Positions 4,747 through 15,114 are shown, counted from the first letter of the stretch. The stretch: 64,000 nt of DNA from an uncultured Clostridia bacterium (GCA_934183325.1 CAKPSH010000004.1:27433-91432), one strand, 5' to 3'. Translations and numbers: made by a program. Notes: generated by a model not told the origin, from the letters alone.

Positions 4747-4775
4747 TTGAACAATAAAATAATGTGTTATATAAT
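4747..4775 (+). promoter_or_regulatory. Candidate sigma-A promoter for the pilus operon (TTGAAC-17-TATAAT)
   Basis: -35 TTGAAC at 4747-4752, 17-nt spacer, -10 TATAAT at 4770-4775, ~40 nt upstream of the cpaB-like start. Confidence 0.35.
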
Positions 4776-4816
4776 AAAATATGAGAAAAAATAAAGAGAT
4801 AAGGGAGGAATTTGAA

Positions 4817-5725
4817 ATGCCATCAAATCCAATGCAAAGAAAAGCAAGAAATTCATTCTTAATAGGAGTTTTAGTAACTACAATTGTAATGGGAGCAATA
4901 ATAGGATTACTATTGTTTAAAATGAAAAAACAACAAGATGAACAGAAAAAAAAGGAAAGCGCAGTAAAAGCCGTCTATGTGTTAACAGCTGATTGCACAG
5001 CTGGAGAGAATATTAGTGCAAAATTAAGCAAGAAAAATGTGCAAAGTGATTTAGCACCTATAAATGCTTTAGATGAAACAACATATTTAACAAAAGTGGA
5101 TGCTGATACAGTTGCAAAGATCAATTTAAAAACAGGAACAATTGTAACAGATGAGATGGTTGTGCAAAGTGATAATGTTGTTTCTAATGATACAAGAGAA
5201 CAAGAATTAAATATGATTGTATTGCCAACATATTTGGAACAAGATGATTATATAGATATAAGACTAAGCTTACCAAGTGGAGAAGATTTTATAGTTGTCT
5301 CAAAGAAAAAAATAGTAAACTCAAATGAATCTACTATGTGGATAAATTGTACCGAAGATGAAACATTAATTTTGTCAAATGCTATTGTTGAATCATATCA
5401 AATATTAGGTTCAAAATTATATGCTGTAAGATATGTTGAACCAGGACTTCAAGATACAGCATCAGTTACATATGTACCAAGCAATGCTGTTATAAACTTA
5501 ATTAATTCAGATCCTAATATAGTAGAAAAAGCTAAAACAGAGTTAGCAAATAGAATTAATAACTTATATAAATATAGAACAGAAGTAATTAATTCAGCAT
5601 TAAATGCTAATAGTGAAGATGCACAAAGCAATATACAAAGTGGAGTAGCAACTTCTATTGAAACTCAAAAGGAGCAAAGAGAAAATTATATAAAAGAATT
5701 AGATGCTGCAGGAACAGTAAATTAA
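4817..5725 (+). CDS. cpaB: CpaB/RcpC-like Flp pilus assembly protein (N-terminal TM anchor, SAF-like domain)
   Basis: Start MPSNPMQRK after AAGGGAGG RBS; TM helix FLIGVLVTTIVMGAIIGLLLF; position as first gene of a Tad-type cluster. Confidence 0.5.
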   Translation: MPSNPMQRKARNSFLIGVLVTTIVMGAIIGLLLFKMKKQQDEQKKKESAVKAVYVLTADCTAGENISAKLSKKNVQSDLAPINALDETTYLTKVDADTVAKINLKTGTIVTDEMVVQSDNVVSNDTREQELNMIVLPTYLEQDDYIDIRLSLPSGEDFIVVSKKKIVNSNESTMWINCTEDETLILSNAIVESYQILGSKLYAVRYVEPGLQDTASVTYVPSNAVINLINSDPNIVEKAKTELANRINNLYKYRTEVINSALNANSEDAQSNIQSGVATSIETQKEQRENYIKELDAAGTVN

Positions 5726-5740
5726 AAAGGAGAAATGAAA

Positions 5741-6442
5741 ATGAAAAAAGTTGGATTTATTGGTACAATAGACAAAACAAATCTAATTTTAAGTATTGCA
5801 AAAATATTAACAGTGAAATCCAAAAGAGTATTAATAATAGATGTAACAGTTGAACAAAAATTAAAGTATATTGTACCAACAGTCCATCCAACTAAGACAT
5901 ATATTACAACTTGGGACGATATAGATGTTGCAGTTGGATTTGAAGACTTAAATCAAATTTGTGAATATGCAGGAATAAAAAAATTAGAAGATGAATATGA
6001 TGTTGTTCTATTTAATATAGATGATGTTGAAGCTATAAATAAAATGCAAATTTATGAAGATGATGTTAATTTATTTGTTACAGCTGTGGACTTGTATTCA
6101 ATCAGAAAAGGAATGGAAATATTTGGAAACATAAAAAAACCTATGAAAATGATAAAAATTATATTTTCAATAATAATGGATGATGCAGAAAATGAATATA
6201 TTGATAGCGAAGCTGAAAACTATAGAGTAGAATGGGAAGGAAAACATATATTTTTCCCTCTAATTTTAGAGGACAGATATACAGAAATGGCTAATCAATT
6301 AATATATAAAATAGGTTTTCGAGAGATGAGCCAAATGTATAAAGATAGTTTAGCACACTTAATAGGTGTAATATTTAAAGATGAAATTAAAGAAAATGAT
6401 GTTAAAAAGTTGATAAAAAACTTTGAAAAGGATGGGGTGTAA
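5741..6442 (+). CDS. ParA/MinD-like protein with degenerate P-loop (pilus-locus accessory protein)
   Basis: VGFIGTIDKTNLILSIAKIL occupies the position of a deviant Walker A but lacks GKT; start ATG 5741 after AAAGGAG. Confidence 0.4.
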   Translation: MKKVGFIGTIDKTNLILSIAKILTVKSKRVLIIDVTVEQKLKYIVPTVHPTKTYITTWDDIDVAVGFEDLNQICEYAGIKKLEDEYDVVLFNIDDVEAINKMQIYEDDVNLFVTAVDLYSIRKGMEIFGNIKKPMKMIKIIFSIIMDDAENEYIDSEAENYRVEWEGKHIFFPLILEDRYTEMANQLIYKIGFREMSQMYKDSLAHLIGVIFKDEIKENDVKKLIKNFEKDGV

Positions 6443-6444
6443 AA

Positions 6445-13122: not shown

Positions 13123-13560
13123 ATGGAGAATGCTTCAAAAGCTCTTTTAATAGCAGGAGCAGTTTTAATAGTAATTGTATTAATAAGTGTAGGTATGTTA
13201 ATAGTAAATCAAGCTTCTTCTGTTACAGACCAAGCAGGTGATTCAATGACAGGACAAGCAATTGATGCTTTTAATAATCAATTCCAAAATTATGCAGGTA
13301 TACAAAAAGGTTCATCAATAAAAACTTTGTTATCATCAATTTCAACAAGCAATGCAACAAATAAAAGTACAAGTAATCATATAATTACAGTTGATATTGT
13401 TGATACAGTTACAACAGGTGCAGCTGGAACAGGTTTAGTAAATGCAACAGACATTACAAAAAAAGTATCTGAGATTATTAATTCTGCAAGATATAAAGTT
13501 GAATTAACAGCTAAAGATGACGAAGGTTATATAACTGCTATAACAATAACAAGACAATAA
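13123..13560 (+). CDS. Pilin-like protein, MENAxxALLxAG family (paralog 3; candidate major pilin)
   Basis: MENASKALLIAGAVLIVIVLISVGMLIV; own consensus-like promoter and strong RBS AAAGGAGGG; Ser/Thr-rich mature part. Confidence 0.5.
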   Translation: MENASKALLIAGAVLIVIVLISVGMLIVNQASSVTDQAGDSMTGQAIDAFNNQFQNYAGIQKGSSIKTLLSSISTSNATNKSTSNHIITVDIVDTVTTGAAGTGLVNATDITKKVSEIINSARYKVELTAKDDEGYITAITITRQ

Positions 13561-13595
13561 TAAAATAATTAATTAGAACTTGTAGGAGGTGTCAA

Positions 13596-14516
13596 ATGGA
13601 AAATGCAGCAGAAGCTTTTAAATTGATATTAGGTGTAACTATATTTGGTTTAGCTTTAACTGTATTATTCCGTATGACATCTCTTGCACGTGATACAGCT
13701 GATCAAGTATTTGAAACAATAGATACTACTATTTACCAAGTCGCTGAAGAACCAGAAAATGGTGCAAATAAAGTTGTAAGTATTGAAGAAATAATACCTA
13801 GTTTGTATAGATATGTACAAGAGGGATATGCTGTAACTATAATTGATGCACAAGGAAGTAATGTTATAGGACCAGATAATATTGTTGCTATGTTTGATTC
13901 TGCAATAGAGGGATATGTAGCAACATGTAAATGGTCTGCTAATCAATATAGTGGTTCATCTTTAAATGAAAGAGAAAATAGTAACAAACGAAAAGTAGTT
14001 ATTGAAAAATATATAAACAATAATATTTTGAATAGTGATATTTTAAAAGGGTATCCAACACAAAAAATTAATGAAGGGTCAGAATCTGCAGATGCAGATT
14101 TTACAGCACATTTAAGTTTAAATTCATTAATAGGAAGAATTTATAAGAATGTTGATAAAGATGGAAATGATAATACGCAACAACCTGTATATACAGACTG
14201 GCAAAGTGGAAATAGAGACAGAGATAGTTATATAACTCAAAGAGTAAATTGCGATGTATATGGAGGGTATGGAAAAAATAAATACACTTTATTTAATAGT
14301 AGATATTCCGGAGGAGAAAATGAAACAAATGCTATAATGGGAGGACATAAAGCAGTATGTGGAGGAGCAGGTCTTCTTGCAACATATAAAAATAATACTT
14401 TTACAGAATATATAAAAGTAATTGATCAGAATAAATATATTGAGGACTCTGATTTGCTAAAATATGGAACTATAAGGTATGCTAAAAAAAGAGAAATTAT
14501 TTATGTAAAAAATTAA
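13596..14516 (+). CDS. Pilin-like protein, MENAxxALLxAG family (paralog 4, large; possible minor pilin/adhesin)
   Basis: MENAAEAFKLILGVTIFGLALTVLF N-terminus followed by a 280-aa hydrophilic domain. Confidence 0.45.
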   Translation: MENAAEAFKLILGVTIFGLALTVLFRMTSLARDTADQVFETIDTTIYQVAEEPENGANKVVSIEEIIPSLYRYVQEGYAVTIIDAQGSNVIGPDNIVAMFDSAIEGYVATCKWSANQYSGSSLNERENSNKRKVVIEKYINNNILNSDILKGYPTQKINEGSESADADFTAHLSLNSLIGRIYKNVDKDGNDNTQQPVYTDWQSGNRDRDSYITQRVNCDVYGGYGKNKYTLFNSRYSGGENETNAIMGGHKAVCGGAGLLATYKNNTFTEYIKVIDQNKYIEDSDLLKYGTIRYAKKREIIYVKN

Positions 14517-14537
14517 AAAAGAAAGGATGTAATTTTA

Positions 14538-15062
14538 ATGGGAGATTCTTTAGTAACAATAGTAACTATAGGTTTAGCTGCAATTTTACTATTTATTTTT
14601 CCAATGATGACTTTAGCTGATAGAACAGATGATATTTCGCAAATTACTGTTCAATCTGCGACTGCAGAGTTTGTAGATGAAGTTAGACAAACTGGAAAAT
14701 TAACAGATGACAATTATGCAAAATATATACAAAAGATAGAATCTACAGGAAACAAATTTGATGTTGAATTAAAGTTACAACGTTTAGATGAAAATCCAGC
14801 CAAGAAAACAGGAACAGGAAGTACAACAATAGGAGAAAATACATATTATACAGTCTATACTACACAAATTGAAAAAGAATTAGAAGATAGTAATTCAAAA
14901 ACTGTGTATTTAAAACAAGGAGATATATTTAGTGCATCTGCAGTAAATATAAATGAAACTCTTGCTGGAGCATTAAAAGGTTTTTTATATAAAATTACAG
15001 GAAATAGCTCTTTTACAATAAATGCTGAAAATGCAGGAATTGTTTTAGTAGATGGTCAATAA
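14538..15062 (+). CDS. TadE/pseudopilin-like protein (N-terminal hydrophobic helix)
   Basis: MGDSLVTIVTIGLAAILLFIFPMMTLADRTDD N-terminus; last gene before the terminator. Confidence 0.35.
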   Translation: MGDSLVTIVTIGLAAILLFIFPMMTLADRTDDISQITVQSATAEFVDEVRQTGKLTDDNYAKYIQKIESTGNKFDVELKLQRLDENPAKKTGTGSTTIGENTYYTVYTTQIEKELEDSNSKTVYLKQGDIFSASAVNINETLAGALKGFLYKITGNSSFTINAENAGIVLVDGQ

Positions 15063-15114
15063 ATGAATTTAAGAAAATGTGAAAAAATTGCATTTTCTTA
15101 AATTCATTTTTTTA
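15062..15114 (+). terminator. Strong rho-independent terminator ending the pilus operon
   Basis: Perfect 18-bp inverted repeat aatgaatttaagaaaatg / cattttcttaaattcatt with 11-nt loop followed by TTTTT. Confidence 0.6.

What the first reader, a model, noticed from the sequence alone, without database searches (positions are those of the whole stretch)
4747..15114. Tad/Flp-like pilus locus with atypical composition, sitting directly upstream of spoIVB
Ten or eleven co-directional genes between a sigma-A-like promoter (4747) and a perfect 18-bp-stem terminator (15062-15114) encode five assembly components. The CpaB-like protein carries a SAF-type domain. Two tandem ParA/MinD-like proteins both have corrupted P-loops. 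The CpaF/TadA-type ATPase has an extra N-terminal TM helix. A 694-aa membrane protein is the size of a fused TadB-TadC. Six N-terminally hydrophobic pilin-like proteins follow. No A24 prepilin peptidase (TadV/CpaA) is encoded in the locus. None of the pilin-like proteins has the Flp G/xxxxEY processing motif. As a whole this is a divergent Tad-type machine, possibly an uncharacterised type IV filament subclass, in a sporulating Clostridial genome.
Basis: partly seen in the sequence, partly recalled or inferred. Interest (0 to 1): 0.7.

Follow-up and report, generated by a model that had tools for sequence, protein, structure and literature searches.

The report
Published TANB77 Tad-like pilus operon
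This is the chromosomal Tad-type pilus gene cluster described in 2024 as the hallmark of the uncultured gut Clostridia order TANB77, so it is not new, but its pilin-like proteins start directly at a conserved Met-Glu-Asn-Ala with no classical leader and no prepilin peptidase gene nearby, and nobody has explained that.

Summary
Eleven co-directional genes (4817-15062) lie between a promoter-like site and a strong terminator, directly upstream of spoIVB. The whole block is syntenic in 80 related gut Clostridia genomes.

It matches, gene by gene, the "TANB77 pilus gene cluster" of Kim et al. 2024 (PMC11680825), so the locus is already known.

Which parts are supported as Tad-like:
- ATPase: well supported. 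CpaF is the only solved relative.
- SAF/CpaB-like protein: supported at family level.
- The two ParA-like proteins: weakly supported.
- 694-aa membrane protein: fails every T2SSF sequence test I ran, and my model was too poor to test its fold. Its platform role rests on context and on the paper's Foldseek result.

New points:
- The pilin-like proteins start at M-E-N-A-x-K-A-L (293 ORFs, Shine-Dalgarno-supported) with no G/xxxxEY leader.
- No A24 peptidase gene lies in the 64-kb window, within about 10 kb in the 80 related loci, or within 12 kb in four plasmid loci.
- The same core operon sits on large plasmids of Cohnella, Lysinibacillus, C. argentinense and C. botulinum, so it is not TANB77-exclusive.
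- This genome lacks the immunostimulatory "pilin 938" gene.

The spoIVB adjacency looks incidental.

The parts
4747..4775 (+). Promoter-like site TTGAAC-17-TATAAT upstream of the operon.
   Evidence: 10 of 12 matches. Such sites are not enriched over shuffles. If it is used, it leaves a 5' UTR of about 35 nt before the 4817 start.
4817..5725 (+). g1: CpaB-like bitopic protein with a SAF-type domain. The ORF opens at 4781, but the likely start is 4817.
   Evidence: TIGR03177 E=1.1e-5, below cut-off. 17 of 24 orthologues hit Pfam SAF. AGGGAGG precedes the 4817 start. Called CpaB by structural homology in PMC11680825.
5735..6442 (+). g2: TadZ-like ParA/MinD-superfamily protein with a degenerate Walker A (GFIGTIDKT).
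   Evidence: Weak CbiA hit, E=0.005. The Gly-to-Asp P-loop change is conserved in orthologues. The paper reports COG1192 and a TadZ-like fold.
6445..7293 (+). g3: a second ParA/MinD-like (CpaE/TadZ-like) protein. The Walker lysine is replaced by Gln in this genome.
   Evidence: The profile hits a ParA-family structure, 3EA0, at E=0.0028. Among 77 orthologues, 37 keep the lysine (GKT/AKT) and 34 have GQT-type motifs.
7351..9240 (+). g4: CpaF/TadA-type secretion ATPase with an N-terminal TM anchor and an extra N-terminal region of about 230 aa.
   Evidence: PF00437 at 26.4 bits, above the cut-off of 24.9. CpaF is the only solved relative. The TM helix is present in 80 of 80 orthologues. Median identity across species is 79%.
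9267..11351 (+). g5: 694-aa polytopic membrane protein (about 7-8 TM segments), the presumed inner-membrane platform.
   Evidence: It lies directly after the ATPase and is the second most conserved gene (57%). It has no T2SSF similarity by sequence. The AF2 model is poor, pLDDT 62. The paper reports a TadC-like then TadB-like fold.
11411..12034 (+). g6: pilin-like protein starting MENASNAL, a paralogue of g7, g8 and g9.
12067..12561 (+). g7: pilin-like protein starting MENAAKAL.
12574..13008 (+). g8: a paralogue of the g6 head domain, with an MKK-hydrophobic N-terminus (signal-peptide-like or anchor-like).
   Evidence: g6 and g8 head domains, E=1.7e-5. The paper predicts a signal peptide for its counterpart, 934.
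13017..13045 (+). Best promoter-like site in the locus: TTGACA-17-(TG)GATAAT, in the 115-bp gap before g9.
   Evidence: 11 of 12 matches, extended -10.
13123..13560 (+). g9: candidate major pilin (145 aa) starting MENASKALLIAGAVLIV.
   Evidence: It has its own strong promoter-like site. Residues 1-24 are almost invariant across homologues. The AF2 model has pLDDT 83, with a helix at 2-55 and a small alpha/beta head.
13596..14516 (+). g10: a larger MENA-class pilin-like protein (306 aa).
14538..15062 (+). g11: TadE/F-like minor pilin candidate, starting M-G-D-S-L... with a conserved Pro22.
   Evidence: 61 of 73 orthologues start M-[GS]-[DE], and Pro22 is 95% conserved. Homologues are present in the plasmid loci.
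15062..15114 (+). Intrinsic terminator: a 20-pair stem, a 7-nt loop and a T-run.

Best explanation
The locus is the TANB77-type Tad-like (type IVc-like) filament operon of a monoderm gut Clostridium.

Proposed mechanism:
- g4 is a membrane-anchored CpaF/TadA-type hexameric ATPase. It drives g5, a single 694-aa polytopic platform protein.
- Together they lift pilin subunits out of the membrane and stack them through their long hydrophobic N-terminal helices into a fibre.
- g9, which has its own strong promoter-like site, is the likely major subunit. g6, g7, g8, g10 and g11 are minor, priming or tip subunits.
- g1 (SAF/CpaB-like, bitopic) forms the extracytoplasmic collar.
- g2 and g3 (TadZ/CpaE-like, with degenerate Walker A motifs) act as scaffold or localisation factors rather than as motors.
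- Unlike canonical Tad, Com or type IV pili, the subunits appear to be made without a cleavable class III leader. They begin Met-Glu-Asn-Ala, or Met-(Gly/Ser)-Asp in g11. The acidic residue next to the N-terminus may stand in for Glu5 of processed pilins, which would make an A24 prepilin peptidase unnecessary.

Shown here: the gene content, the synteny, the ATPase affinity to CpaF, the SAF domain in the family, the true start codons, the lack of a nearby peptidase gene, and the predicted helix-plus-head shape of g9.

Inferred: the platform role of g5, filament formation, which subunit is the major one, independence from a peptidase, and the biological role (adhesion to host or particles is the most likely).
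For: - Gene order and protein sizes match clusters 927-937 of PMC11680825.
- The whole block is syntenic in 80 species. Median identity is 79% for the ATPase, 57% for g5 and 33-51% for the rest.
- The ATPase passes T2SSE, and CpaF is the only significant PDB relative.
- SAF is found in 17 of 24 g1 orthologues, and the window protein gives a partial CpaB hit.
- g3 shows ParA-family similarity, and the P-loop patterns fit.
- For the MENA class (293 ORFs), Glu2, Asn3, Ala4, Ala7 and Leu8 are each 95-98% conserved. 285 of 293 ORFs have a Shine-Dalgarno at -14 to -8. The median distance to an upstream in-frame stop is 5 codons.
- The g9 model has a 54-residue N-terminal helix and a small head, pLDDT 83.
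- No A24-like ORF lies in the window, in about 10 kb either side in the 80 loci, or in 12 kb either side in the four plasmid loci.
- Canonical loci fetched for contrast carry classical leaders: KKGG|LSQLL in C. botulinum and EEDG|VALTEY in Rhizobium.
Against: - g5 shows no T2SSF similarity by Pfam, NCBIfam, a PDB profile search or hhalign, although the hhalign control worked. Foldseek on my low-confidence model found nothing.
- g2 and g3 fall below every curated cut-off.
- No pilus has been seen in any TANB77 organism. The paper gives only bioinformatics for the assembly genes.
- A trans-encoded A24 peptidase elsewhere in the genome could not be excluded.
Confidence: 0.68

Rival explanations
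1. This is an ordinary peptidase-dependent Tad pilus. The seven residues MENASKA are an ultra-short class III leader. An A24 prepilin peptidase encoded elsewhere in the genome cuts after Lys6-Ala7, as archaeal PibD/FlaK-type enzymes cut after [K/R]-[G/A].
For: K6-A7-L8 fits the archaeal-type [KR][GA]-hydrophobic pattern in about 75% of MENA-class proteins. MSH pili are a precedent for loci that lack their own peptidase and borrow one (PMC6668835). Only 64 kb of this genome could be examined.
Against: Residues 2-4 of the putative leader are 95-98% conserved, as strongly as the helix core, whereas leaders are normally variable. About 20% of MENA proteins (the g10 class) have Asp or Glu at position 6. 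The g11 class (M-G/S-D-...) has no basic residue or Gly/Ala cleavage context at all. No peptidase gene lies near any of the 84 related loci examined (80 genome loci and four plasmid loci).
Confidence: 0.25
2. The apparatus is a short pseudopilus used for DNA transfer, DNA uptake or mating-pair contact, rather than a long adhesive pilus. It would have been inherited from a plasmid-borne module.
For: The same core operon lies on 134-175 kb plasmids of Cohnella, Lysinibacillus, C. argentinense and C. botulinum. There it sits next to partition genes, a C40 peptidase or cell-wall hydrolase, and large surface proteins. The best NCBIfam hit of the ATPase is the 'TadA family conjugal transfer-associated ATPase' model, far below its cut-off.
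Against: In the window the locus sits among housekeeping genes (HAD, spoIVB, murC, clpC, radA, disA), with no relaxase, coupling protein or ComEA/ComEC-like gene. The plasmids are typed non-mobilizable. Synteny across 80 species indicates vertical inheritance.
Confidence: 0.12
3. The pilin-like proteins are unrelated membrane-anchored or Sec-secreted surface proteins. The upstream genes would then form a different kind of ATP-driven export or assembly system, possibly linked to sporulation through spoIVB.
For: No pilin family or solved pilin fold matches g6-g11. g5 has no T2SSF signal. SASP and spoIVB genes flank the locus.
Against: The N-terminal 24 residues of g9 homologues are almost invariant. 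That is typical of pilin alpha1-N helices and not of signal peptides. The combination of a CpaF-type ATPase, a SAF/CpaB-like protein and ParA-like proteins is specific to Tad systems. A strong terminator separates the operon from spoIVB. The plasmid relatives have no spoIVB neighbour.
Confidence: 0.05

Closest known systems
TANB77 conserved pilus gene cluster (genes 927-938 of HRGM_Genome_2725, CAG-245; Kim et al., Nat Commun 2024, PMC11680825)
   Same: The order and sizes match: CpaB-like, two ParA-like, a roughly 630-aa ATPase with one TM helix, a roughly 693-aa protein with 8 TM helices, then six small proteins with N-terminal hydrophobic segments (five TM anchors and one predicted signal peptide). 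Window sizes are 314/235/282/629/694/207/164/144/145/306/174 aa. The paper's are 358/231/280/640/693/165/170/143/146/237/178 aa.
   Different: The window lacks the twelfth gene, the 621-aa 'pilin 938' that the paper tested as a TLR4 agonist. The paper does not discuss leaders, a prepilin peptidase, spoIVB or plasmid relatives. It calls the cluster exclusive to TANB77, which the plasmid loci contradict.
Tad/Flp (type IVc) pili of Aggregatibacter actinomycetemcomitans and Caulobacter crescentus
   Same: Both have a CpaF/TadA-clade ATPase, a CpaB/RcpC-type SAF protein, TadZ/CpaE-type ParA proteins with atypical Walker A motifs, a single-locus organisation, and several minor pilin genes.
   Different: This locus has no Flp-type pilin (about 50-70 aa, G/xxxxEY) and no TadV/CpaA. 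As expected for a monoderm, it has no secretin or TadD. It has one 694-aa membrane protein in place of TadB plus TadC, with no detectable T2SSF sequence signal. The ATPase is membrane-anchored and only about 25% identical to CpaF. The pilin-like subunits are 145-306 aa with globular heads.
Archaeal type IV pili (Epd-like) and their two-domain platform proteins
   Same: The platform is a single polypeptide. The domain order reported for the TANB77 protein (TadC-like N half, TadB-like C half; PMC11680825) is the order Denise et al. found when aligning TadC and TadB to archaeal platforms (PMC6668835). The K-A-hydrophobic pattern resembles archaeal class III cleavage sites.
   Different: The ATPase retrieves bacterial CpaF, not archaeal FlaI or PilB, from the PDB. 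CpaB-like proteins are a bacterial Tad feature. The domain order was not verified here.
Plasmid-borne homologous operons in Bacillota (Cohnella herbarum NZ_CP051681, Lysinibacillus fusiformis NZ_CP118715, C. argentinense pRSJ17_1, C. botulinum pST0210E1)
   Same: The same core occurs in the same order: SAF protein, two ParA-like proteins, ATPase (37-56% identity over the full length), a 666-689-aa membrane protein (25-33%), a leaderless pilin-like protein, a g11-like protein and a 938-like protein.
   Different: They are plasmid-borne and have fewer pilin paralogues. The N-termini vary (MSNAQKAL, MGENARKAL, MSETTATAL, MDSPVVKK). The C. argentinense and C. botulinum ATPases lack the N-terminal TM helix. 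These loci are annotated only as hypothetical proteins.

Membership tests
Tad (type IVc) pilus system | TadA/CpaF-clade T2SSE ATPase with Walker A, Walker B and His box | tested here: met
   PF00437 scores 26.4 bits against a cut-off of 24.9. The best NCBIfam hit is the TadA-family model TIGR03819, 1.8e-7, below its cut-off. CpaF is the only significant PDB match, 3e-10 with the sequence and 4e-11 with a profile. The GCGKTT, IIGEV and THHA motifs are visible in the alignment.
Tad (type IVc) pilus system | Inner-membrane platform made of T2SSF-domain proteins (TadB and TadC) | tested here: inconclusive
   No T2SSF hit for g5, for 25 orthologues or for 65 diverse family members. PDB profile searches were empty. 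hhalign against TadB/TadC/GspF/HofC domain alignments gave probability of 1.3% or less, while the Tad-versus-Gsp control gave 87%. The AF2 model was too poor (pLDDT 62), and Foldseek on it found nothing. The afdb50 library was unavailable. The only positive evidence is the Foldseek result reported in PMC11680825.
Tad (type IVc) pilus system | TadZ/CpaE: a ParA/MinD-superfamily protein with an atypical Walker A | tested here: inconclusive
   The g3 profile hits ParA-family structure 3EA0 at 0.0028 and Get3 at about 0.007. g2 hits CbiA at 0.005. All of these are below curated cut-offs. The deviant P-loops are documented. hhalign against a single Rhizobium CpaE sequence was not significant.
Tad (type IVc) pilus system | CpaB/RcpC protein with an N-terminal TM segment and a SAF domain | tested here: met
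   SAF (PF08666) is found in 17 of 24 orthologues, best E=1.5e-5. The window protein aligns to positions 2-101 of TIGR03177 at 1.1e-5, which is 24.8 bits against a cut-off of 71. It is therefore a member of the SAF/CpaB-like class, not an equivalog.
Tad (type IVc) pilus system | Flp-type prepilin with a leader ending in Gly and a G/xxxxEY motif | tested here: not met
   No Flp_Fap, TadE or N_methyl hit. The N-termini are M-E-N-A-x-K-A-L or M-G/S-D, and the start codons are confirmed by Shine-Dalgarno sites and upstream stops. The contrast loci show the classical motif.
Tad (type IVc) pilus system | Dedicated A24 prepilin peptidase (TadV/CpaA) | tested here: not met
   None was found in the 64-kb window, in about 10 kb either side in the 80 related loci, or in the annotation of four plasmid loci. 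Genome-wide absence could not be tested with these tools.
Type IV pilin superfamily | N-terminal alpha-helix of about 50 residues, with a hydrophobic first half, followed by a globular head (lollipop shape) | tested here: met
TANB77 pilus gene cluster (PMC11680825) | Twelve conserved genes, 927-938, in fixed order in a TANB77 genome | tested here: met
   Eleven of twelve genes are present in the same order with matching sizes and TM features. The relatives are gut MAGs such as Clostridium sp. CAG:780 and Ca. Scatovivens. Gene 938 is absent here and in the nearest relatives. The GTDB placement itself was not computed.

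The most novel reading that the evidence does not exclude
The TANB77 locus and its plasmid-borne relatives form a distinct clade of type IV filament machines, sister to canonical Tad, that works without a prepilin peptidase. On this reading:
- The pilins are translated without a cleavable leader.
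- They keep an N-terminal X-Glu/Asp motif (Met-Glu in the MENA class; Gly/Ser-Asp in the g11 class after methionine removal) that takes over the role of Glu5.
- They are assembled by a membrane-anchored CpaF-like ATPase on a single-chain platform protein. That protein belongs to a large family (at least 1,249 clusters at 50% identity) that no current domain model recognises.
Probability: 0.3. Interest if true: 0.75.

Novelty: already known. Interest (0 to 1): 0.4.

Why it matters
TANB77 is the gut taxon most consistently enriched in responders to checkpoint-blockade therapy, and this cluster is its proposed effector locus (PMC11680825). Whether it really builds a pilus, and how, is therefore of practical interest.

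For type IV filament biology, prepilin-peptidase processing has been treated as a defining feature of the superfamily. A widespread system with leaderless pilins would be an exception to that rule.

Two smaller points also matter:
- The cluster is not exclusive to TANB77. Homologous operons occur on large plasmids, including the C. argentinense plasmid pRSJ17_1 and a C. botulinum plasmid.
- Some TANB77 lineages, including this genome, lack the 'pilin 938' gene that was used as the immunostimulant. This affects its use as a biomarker.

Tried and rejected
1. T2SSF homology of g5. None of these tests was significant:
- Pfam and NCBIfam on the window protein.
- Pfam on 25 orthologues and on 65 diverse relatives.
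- PDB profile searches.
- hhalign against single TadB and TadC sequences.
- hhalign against small T2SSF-domain alignments, with a working positive control.
- A test for an internal repeat.
- An AF2 model, which reached only pLDDT 62, followed by Foldseek against the PDB, which returned only noise.
- afdb50 was unavailable.

3. hhalign of the g1 and g3 profiles against single Rhizobium CpaB and CpaE sequences, and of g2 against g3. Only short motif-level matches appeared, none significant.

4. Search for an A24 peptidase by TM-count filtering and by tblastn with Rhizobium TadV and E. coli GspO. Nothing was found.

5. Recent horizontal transfer or atypical base composition. I rejected this: G+C and skew are continuous with the flanks, and the context is housekeeping genes.

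6. A functional link to spoIVB. I rejected this as unsupported, because of the terminator, the 938 gene that intervenes in most relatives, and the absence of spoIVB from the plasmid loci.

7. The supplementary files of the paper are not held. Literature searches for leaderless pilins and for a C. botulinum plasmid pilus found nothing relevant.

Full report
WHAT IS THERE

The window is low-G+C DNA (about 26%). Between 4781 and 15062 lie eleven co-directional + strand ORFs:
- g1, 4781/4817-5725
- g2, 5735-6442
- g3, 6445-7293
- g4, 7351-9240
- g5, 9267-11351
- g6, 11411-12034
- g7, 12067-12561
- g8, 12574-13008
- g9, 13123-13560
- g10, 13596-14516
- g11, 14538-15062

A hairpin with 18 perfect pairs plus 2 G-U pairs and a T-run follows at 15062-15114. 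Next comes spoIVB (Peptidase_S55, 1.6e-77, plus PDZ) and then murC on the other strand.

The promoter-like site at 4747-4775 exists, but such sites are no more frequent here than in shuffled sequence (73 against 79.5). g1 most likely starts at 4817, because an AGGGAGG lies 8 nt upstream and the orthologues begin at that methionine. The best promoter-like match in the whole locus (TTGACA-17-TG-GATAAT, 13017-13045) sits in the 115-bp gap before g9.

The flanks are housekeeping and sporulation genes: a MiaB-like gene, a gene with no family match (2325-3329), an alpha/beta SASP gene, a HAD hydrolase gene, clpC, radA, disA, a spore photoproduct lyase gene, and ribosomal genes with secY. Nothing suggests a mobile element or a compositional anomaly.

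IT IS REAL AND CONSERVED

The ATPase has more than 7,400 database homologues. The best 120 listed are 80-100% identical, and a few are labelled 'Flp pilus assembly complex ATPase component TadA [Clostridia bacterium]'. A genome scan found it in more than 540 species-level genomes. All 80 loci returned are uncultured gut Clostridia MAGs, for example Clostridium sp. CAG:780 and Ca. Scatovivens.

In those 80 loci the whole block g1-g11 keeps its order. It is preceded by the HAD gene in 55 loci and followed by spoIVB in 64. Median protein identities are:
- 79% for g4
- 57% for g5
- 51% for g11
- 33-40% for the rest

IT IS ALREADY PUBLISHED

A literature search found Kim et al., Nat Commun 2024 (PMC11680825). 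That paper describes a 10-14 gene cluster carried by 122 of 129 TANB77 species. Its Table 1 lists:
- 927: CpaB-like, 358 aa, 1 TM helix
- 928: TadZ-like, 231 aa
- 929: CpaE-like, 280 aa
- 930: TadA/CpaF, 640 aa, 1 TM helix
- 932-937: pilin-like, 165, 170, 143, 146, 237 and 178 aa
- 938: 621 aa, N-terminal quarter TadE/PilV-like

This matches the window gene for gene. The authors proposed a Tad-type pilus on bioinformatic grounds and showed that recombinant 938 activates dendritic cells through TLR4. The paper never mentions a peptidase, TadV, a leader, sporulation or spoIVB. No later paper in the library addresses the machinery.

COMPONENT-BY-COMPONENT TEST

ATPase (g4):
- It passes Pfam T2SSE narrowly (26.4 against 24.9 bits).
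- Its best NCBIfam hit is a TadA-family model.
- CpaF is the only significant solved relative, with the single sequence (3e-10) and with a profile that includes the plasmid homologues (4e-11).
- The N-terminal TM helix is present in all 80 orthologues.

g1: the window protein aligns to the first 100 positions of TIGR03177 CpaB (1.1e-5, below cut-off). Seventeen of 24 orthologues hit Pfam SAF.

g2 and g3:
- Only weak ParA/MinD signals were found: CbiA at 0.005 for g2, and ParA-family structure 3EA0 at 0.0028 for the g3 profile.
- The g2 P-loop is GFIGxxDKT in nearly all orthologues.
- The g3 P-loop is GQT in this genome, but GKT or AKT in 37 of 77 orthologues.
- Atypical Walker A motifs with low ATPase activity are the published hallmark of TadZ (PMC6668835). 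The 'corrupted P-loops' therefore support the assignment rather than weaken it.

g5 is the weak point:
- Neither it, nor 25 orthologues, nor 65 relatives as low as 22% identity, hit T2SSF.
- PDB profile searches are empty.
- hhalign against TadB/TadC/GspF/HofC domain alignments gives a probability of 1.3% or less, although the same small alignments detect each other at 87%.
- My AF2 model reached only pLDDT 62, and Foldseek against the PDB returned noise. The AFDB library was unavailable.
- The platform role therefore rests on four things: its position right after the ATPase, its polytopic topology with two conserved cytoplasmic helical regions, its rank as the second most conserved gene, and the paper's Foldseek statement.
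- The g5 family is large: 1,249 clusters at 50% identity with E at or below 1e-3. It is unannotated.

THE PILIN-LIKE PROTEINS

g6, g7, g8 and g9 are paralogues (E from 1e-5 to 1e-14). g10 and g11 are separate families.

Across the window and the 80 loci, 293 of 586 ORFs downstream of g5 begin M-E-N-A-x-K-A-L:
- Glu2 is conserved in 97%, Asn3 in 98%, Ala4 in 95%, Ala7 in 98% and Leu8 in 95%.
- Position 6 is Lys in 72% and Asp or Glu in 20%.

These are the true starts:
- 285 of 293 have a GGAGG-type Shine-Dalgarno at -14 to -8.
- The median distance to an upstream in-frame stop is 5 codons.
- Only 8 have any upstream in-frame start codon.

In g9 homologues residues 1-24 are almost invariant, while the rest of the protein falls to about 40% identity. 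That pattern is typical of the alpha1-N segment of pilins and not of signal peptides.

AlphaFold predicts for g9 a helix spanning residues 2-55 followed by a small alpha/beta head (pLDDT 83). The head resembles no solved pilin.

In the g11 family, 61 of 73 members start M-(G/S)-(D/E), and a proline at position 22 is 95% conserved.

Established methionine-aminopeptidase specificity predicts that Met stays before Glu and is removed before Gly or Ser. Both classes would then carry an acidic residue at mature position 2. This last point is my inference.

NO PEPTIDASE NEARBY

The only ORFs in the 64-kb window with four or more TM segments are g5, SecY and one spurious antisense ORF. No recurrent polytopic 110-330-aa ORF occurs within about 10 kb of the cluster in the 80 loci. 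tblastn with Rhizobium TadV and E. coli GspO finds nothing. Whole genomes could not be searched with the tools available.

BEYOND TANB77

tblastn of the ATPase domain against plasmids gave these hits:
- 70% identity to a 'TadA' on a Cohnella herbarum plasmid
- 54-63% on Paenibacillus and Lysinibacillus plasmids
- 49% on C. argentinense pRSJ17_1
- 41% on C. botulinum pST0210E1
- Only 23-29% to canonical TadA/CpaF

Four of these loci carry the same core in the same order: a SAF protein, two ParA-like proteins, the ATPase, a 666-689-aa membrane protein, a pilin-like protein with a 6-9-residue polar N-terminus (MSNAQKAL..., MGENARKAL..., MSETTATAL..., MDSPVVKK...), a g11-like protein and a 938-like protein. 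Pairwise E-values reach 1e-120 for g5.

None of the four has an annotated prepilin peptidase within 12 kb. The system is therefore a distinct Bacillota clade of Tad-like machines and is not exclusive to TANB77.

The 938-type gene belongs to this ancient core. Even so, it is missing from the window (no tblastn hit anywhere; 112 bp between g11 and spoIVB), from its closest relatives L002-L004, and from L049 and L075.

MECHANISM AND RIVALS

My preferred reading (about 0.68) is a Tad-family filament machine of a monoderm:
- The anchored CpaF-like ATPase works on the g5 platform.
- The g1 collar and the g2/g3 scaffolds complete the assembly.
- g9 is the major subunit and the others are minor.
- The unusual twist is that the subunits need no leader cleavage.

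The main rival (about 0.25) keeps everything except the twist. A trans-encoded A24 enzyme would cut after Lys6-Ala7, which fits archaeal-type sites. It does not explain the near-invariance of residues 2-4, nor the g10 and g11 classes.

A DNA-transfer or DNA-uptake pseudopilus (about 0.12) is suggested only by the plasmid relatives. A sporulation-linked or non-pilus system (about 0.05) has little support.

VERDICT

The Tad-type interpretation is largely right, but the locus has already been described, so I rate its novelty as 'already known'.

The residual interest (0.4) comes from four points that the paper did not cover:
- the leaderless MENA pilins and the missing peptidase
- a platform family that is invisible to T2SSF models
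- the plasmid relatives in C. botulinum-group and Bacillales hosts
- the loss of gene 938 in this lineage

Noticed in passing
window 15062-15175, compared with L005-L079: The gene for 'pilin 938' lies between g11 and spoIVB in most related loci, where the gap is 1.5-4 kb. Kim et al. 2024 used this TLR4-activating protein. It is absent here (112-bp gap, and no tblastn hit anywhere in the 64 kb). It is also absent from the nearest relatives L002-L004 and from L049 and L075.
   Followed up: yes
L081 (Cohnella herbarum plasmid), L082 (C. argentinense pRSJ17_1), L085 (C. botulinum pST0210E1), L086 (Lysinibacillus fusiformis plasmid): The same core operon, including g11-like and 938-like genes, lies on 134-175 kb plasmids of cultured Bacillota. 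All of it is annotated as hypothetical proteins. This contradicts the published claim that the cluster is exclusive to TANB77, and it offers culturable hosts for experiments.
   Followed up: partly
L085 23306-23794 and 15577-16329; L082 674-2806: The C. botulinum plasmid locus has a cell-wall hydrolase gene among the pilin-like genes and a type I signal peptidase (lepB) about 8 kb downstream. The C. argentinense locus is preceded by a C40 peptidase gene and a 1,400-aa cell-wall-binding protein gene. These may be accessory wall-remodelling or adhesin genes.
   Followed up: no
window 13017-13045: The strongest sigma-70-like match in the region (TTGACA-17-TG-GATAAT) lies just upstream of g9. This fits separate high-level expression of a major subunit. 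In some relatives (L012, L047) the g9-type gene is duplicated in tandem.
   Followed up: partly
L005 13765-16254: One 938 homologue (829 aa) carries Listeria-Bacteroides repeat domains (PF09479, 2e-19) at its C-terminus. 938-type proteins range from about 320 to about 1,240 aa, which suggests a variable adhesin-like tip module on a conserved pilin-like N-terminus.
   Followed up: no
window 3425-3625 (- strand): This is an alpha/beta-type small acid-soluble spore protein gene (PF00269, 9e-30). The 102-aa ORF in the mechanical list over-extends it at a TTG. Together with spoIVB and the spore photoproduct lyase gene (34157-35185), it shows that the organism has sporulation genes.
   Followed up: yes
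window 6445-7293 and orthologues: The Walker A lysine of g3 alternates between Lys (37) and Gln or Asn (34) across 77 species, with no other obvious change. ATP hydrolysis by this TadZ-like protein therefore seems dispensable in about half of the lineage.
   Followed up: partly
window 2325-3329: This 334-aa ORF has an N-terminal TM region and no Pfam match. Only 2 of the 80 related loci contain it, so it is a lineage-specific insertion between the MiaB-like gene and the SASP gene.
   Followed up: no
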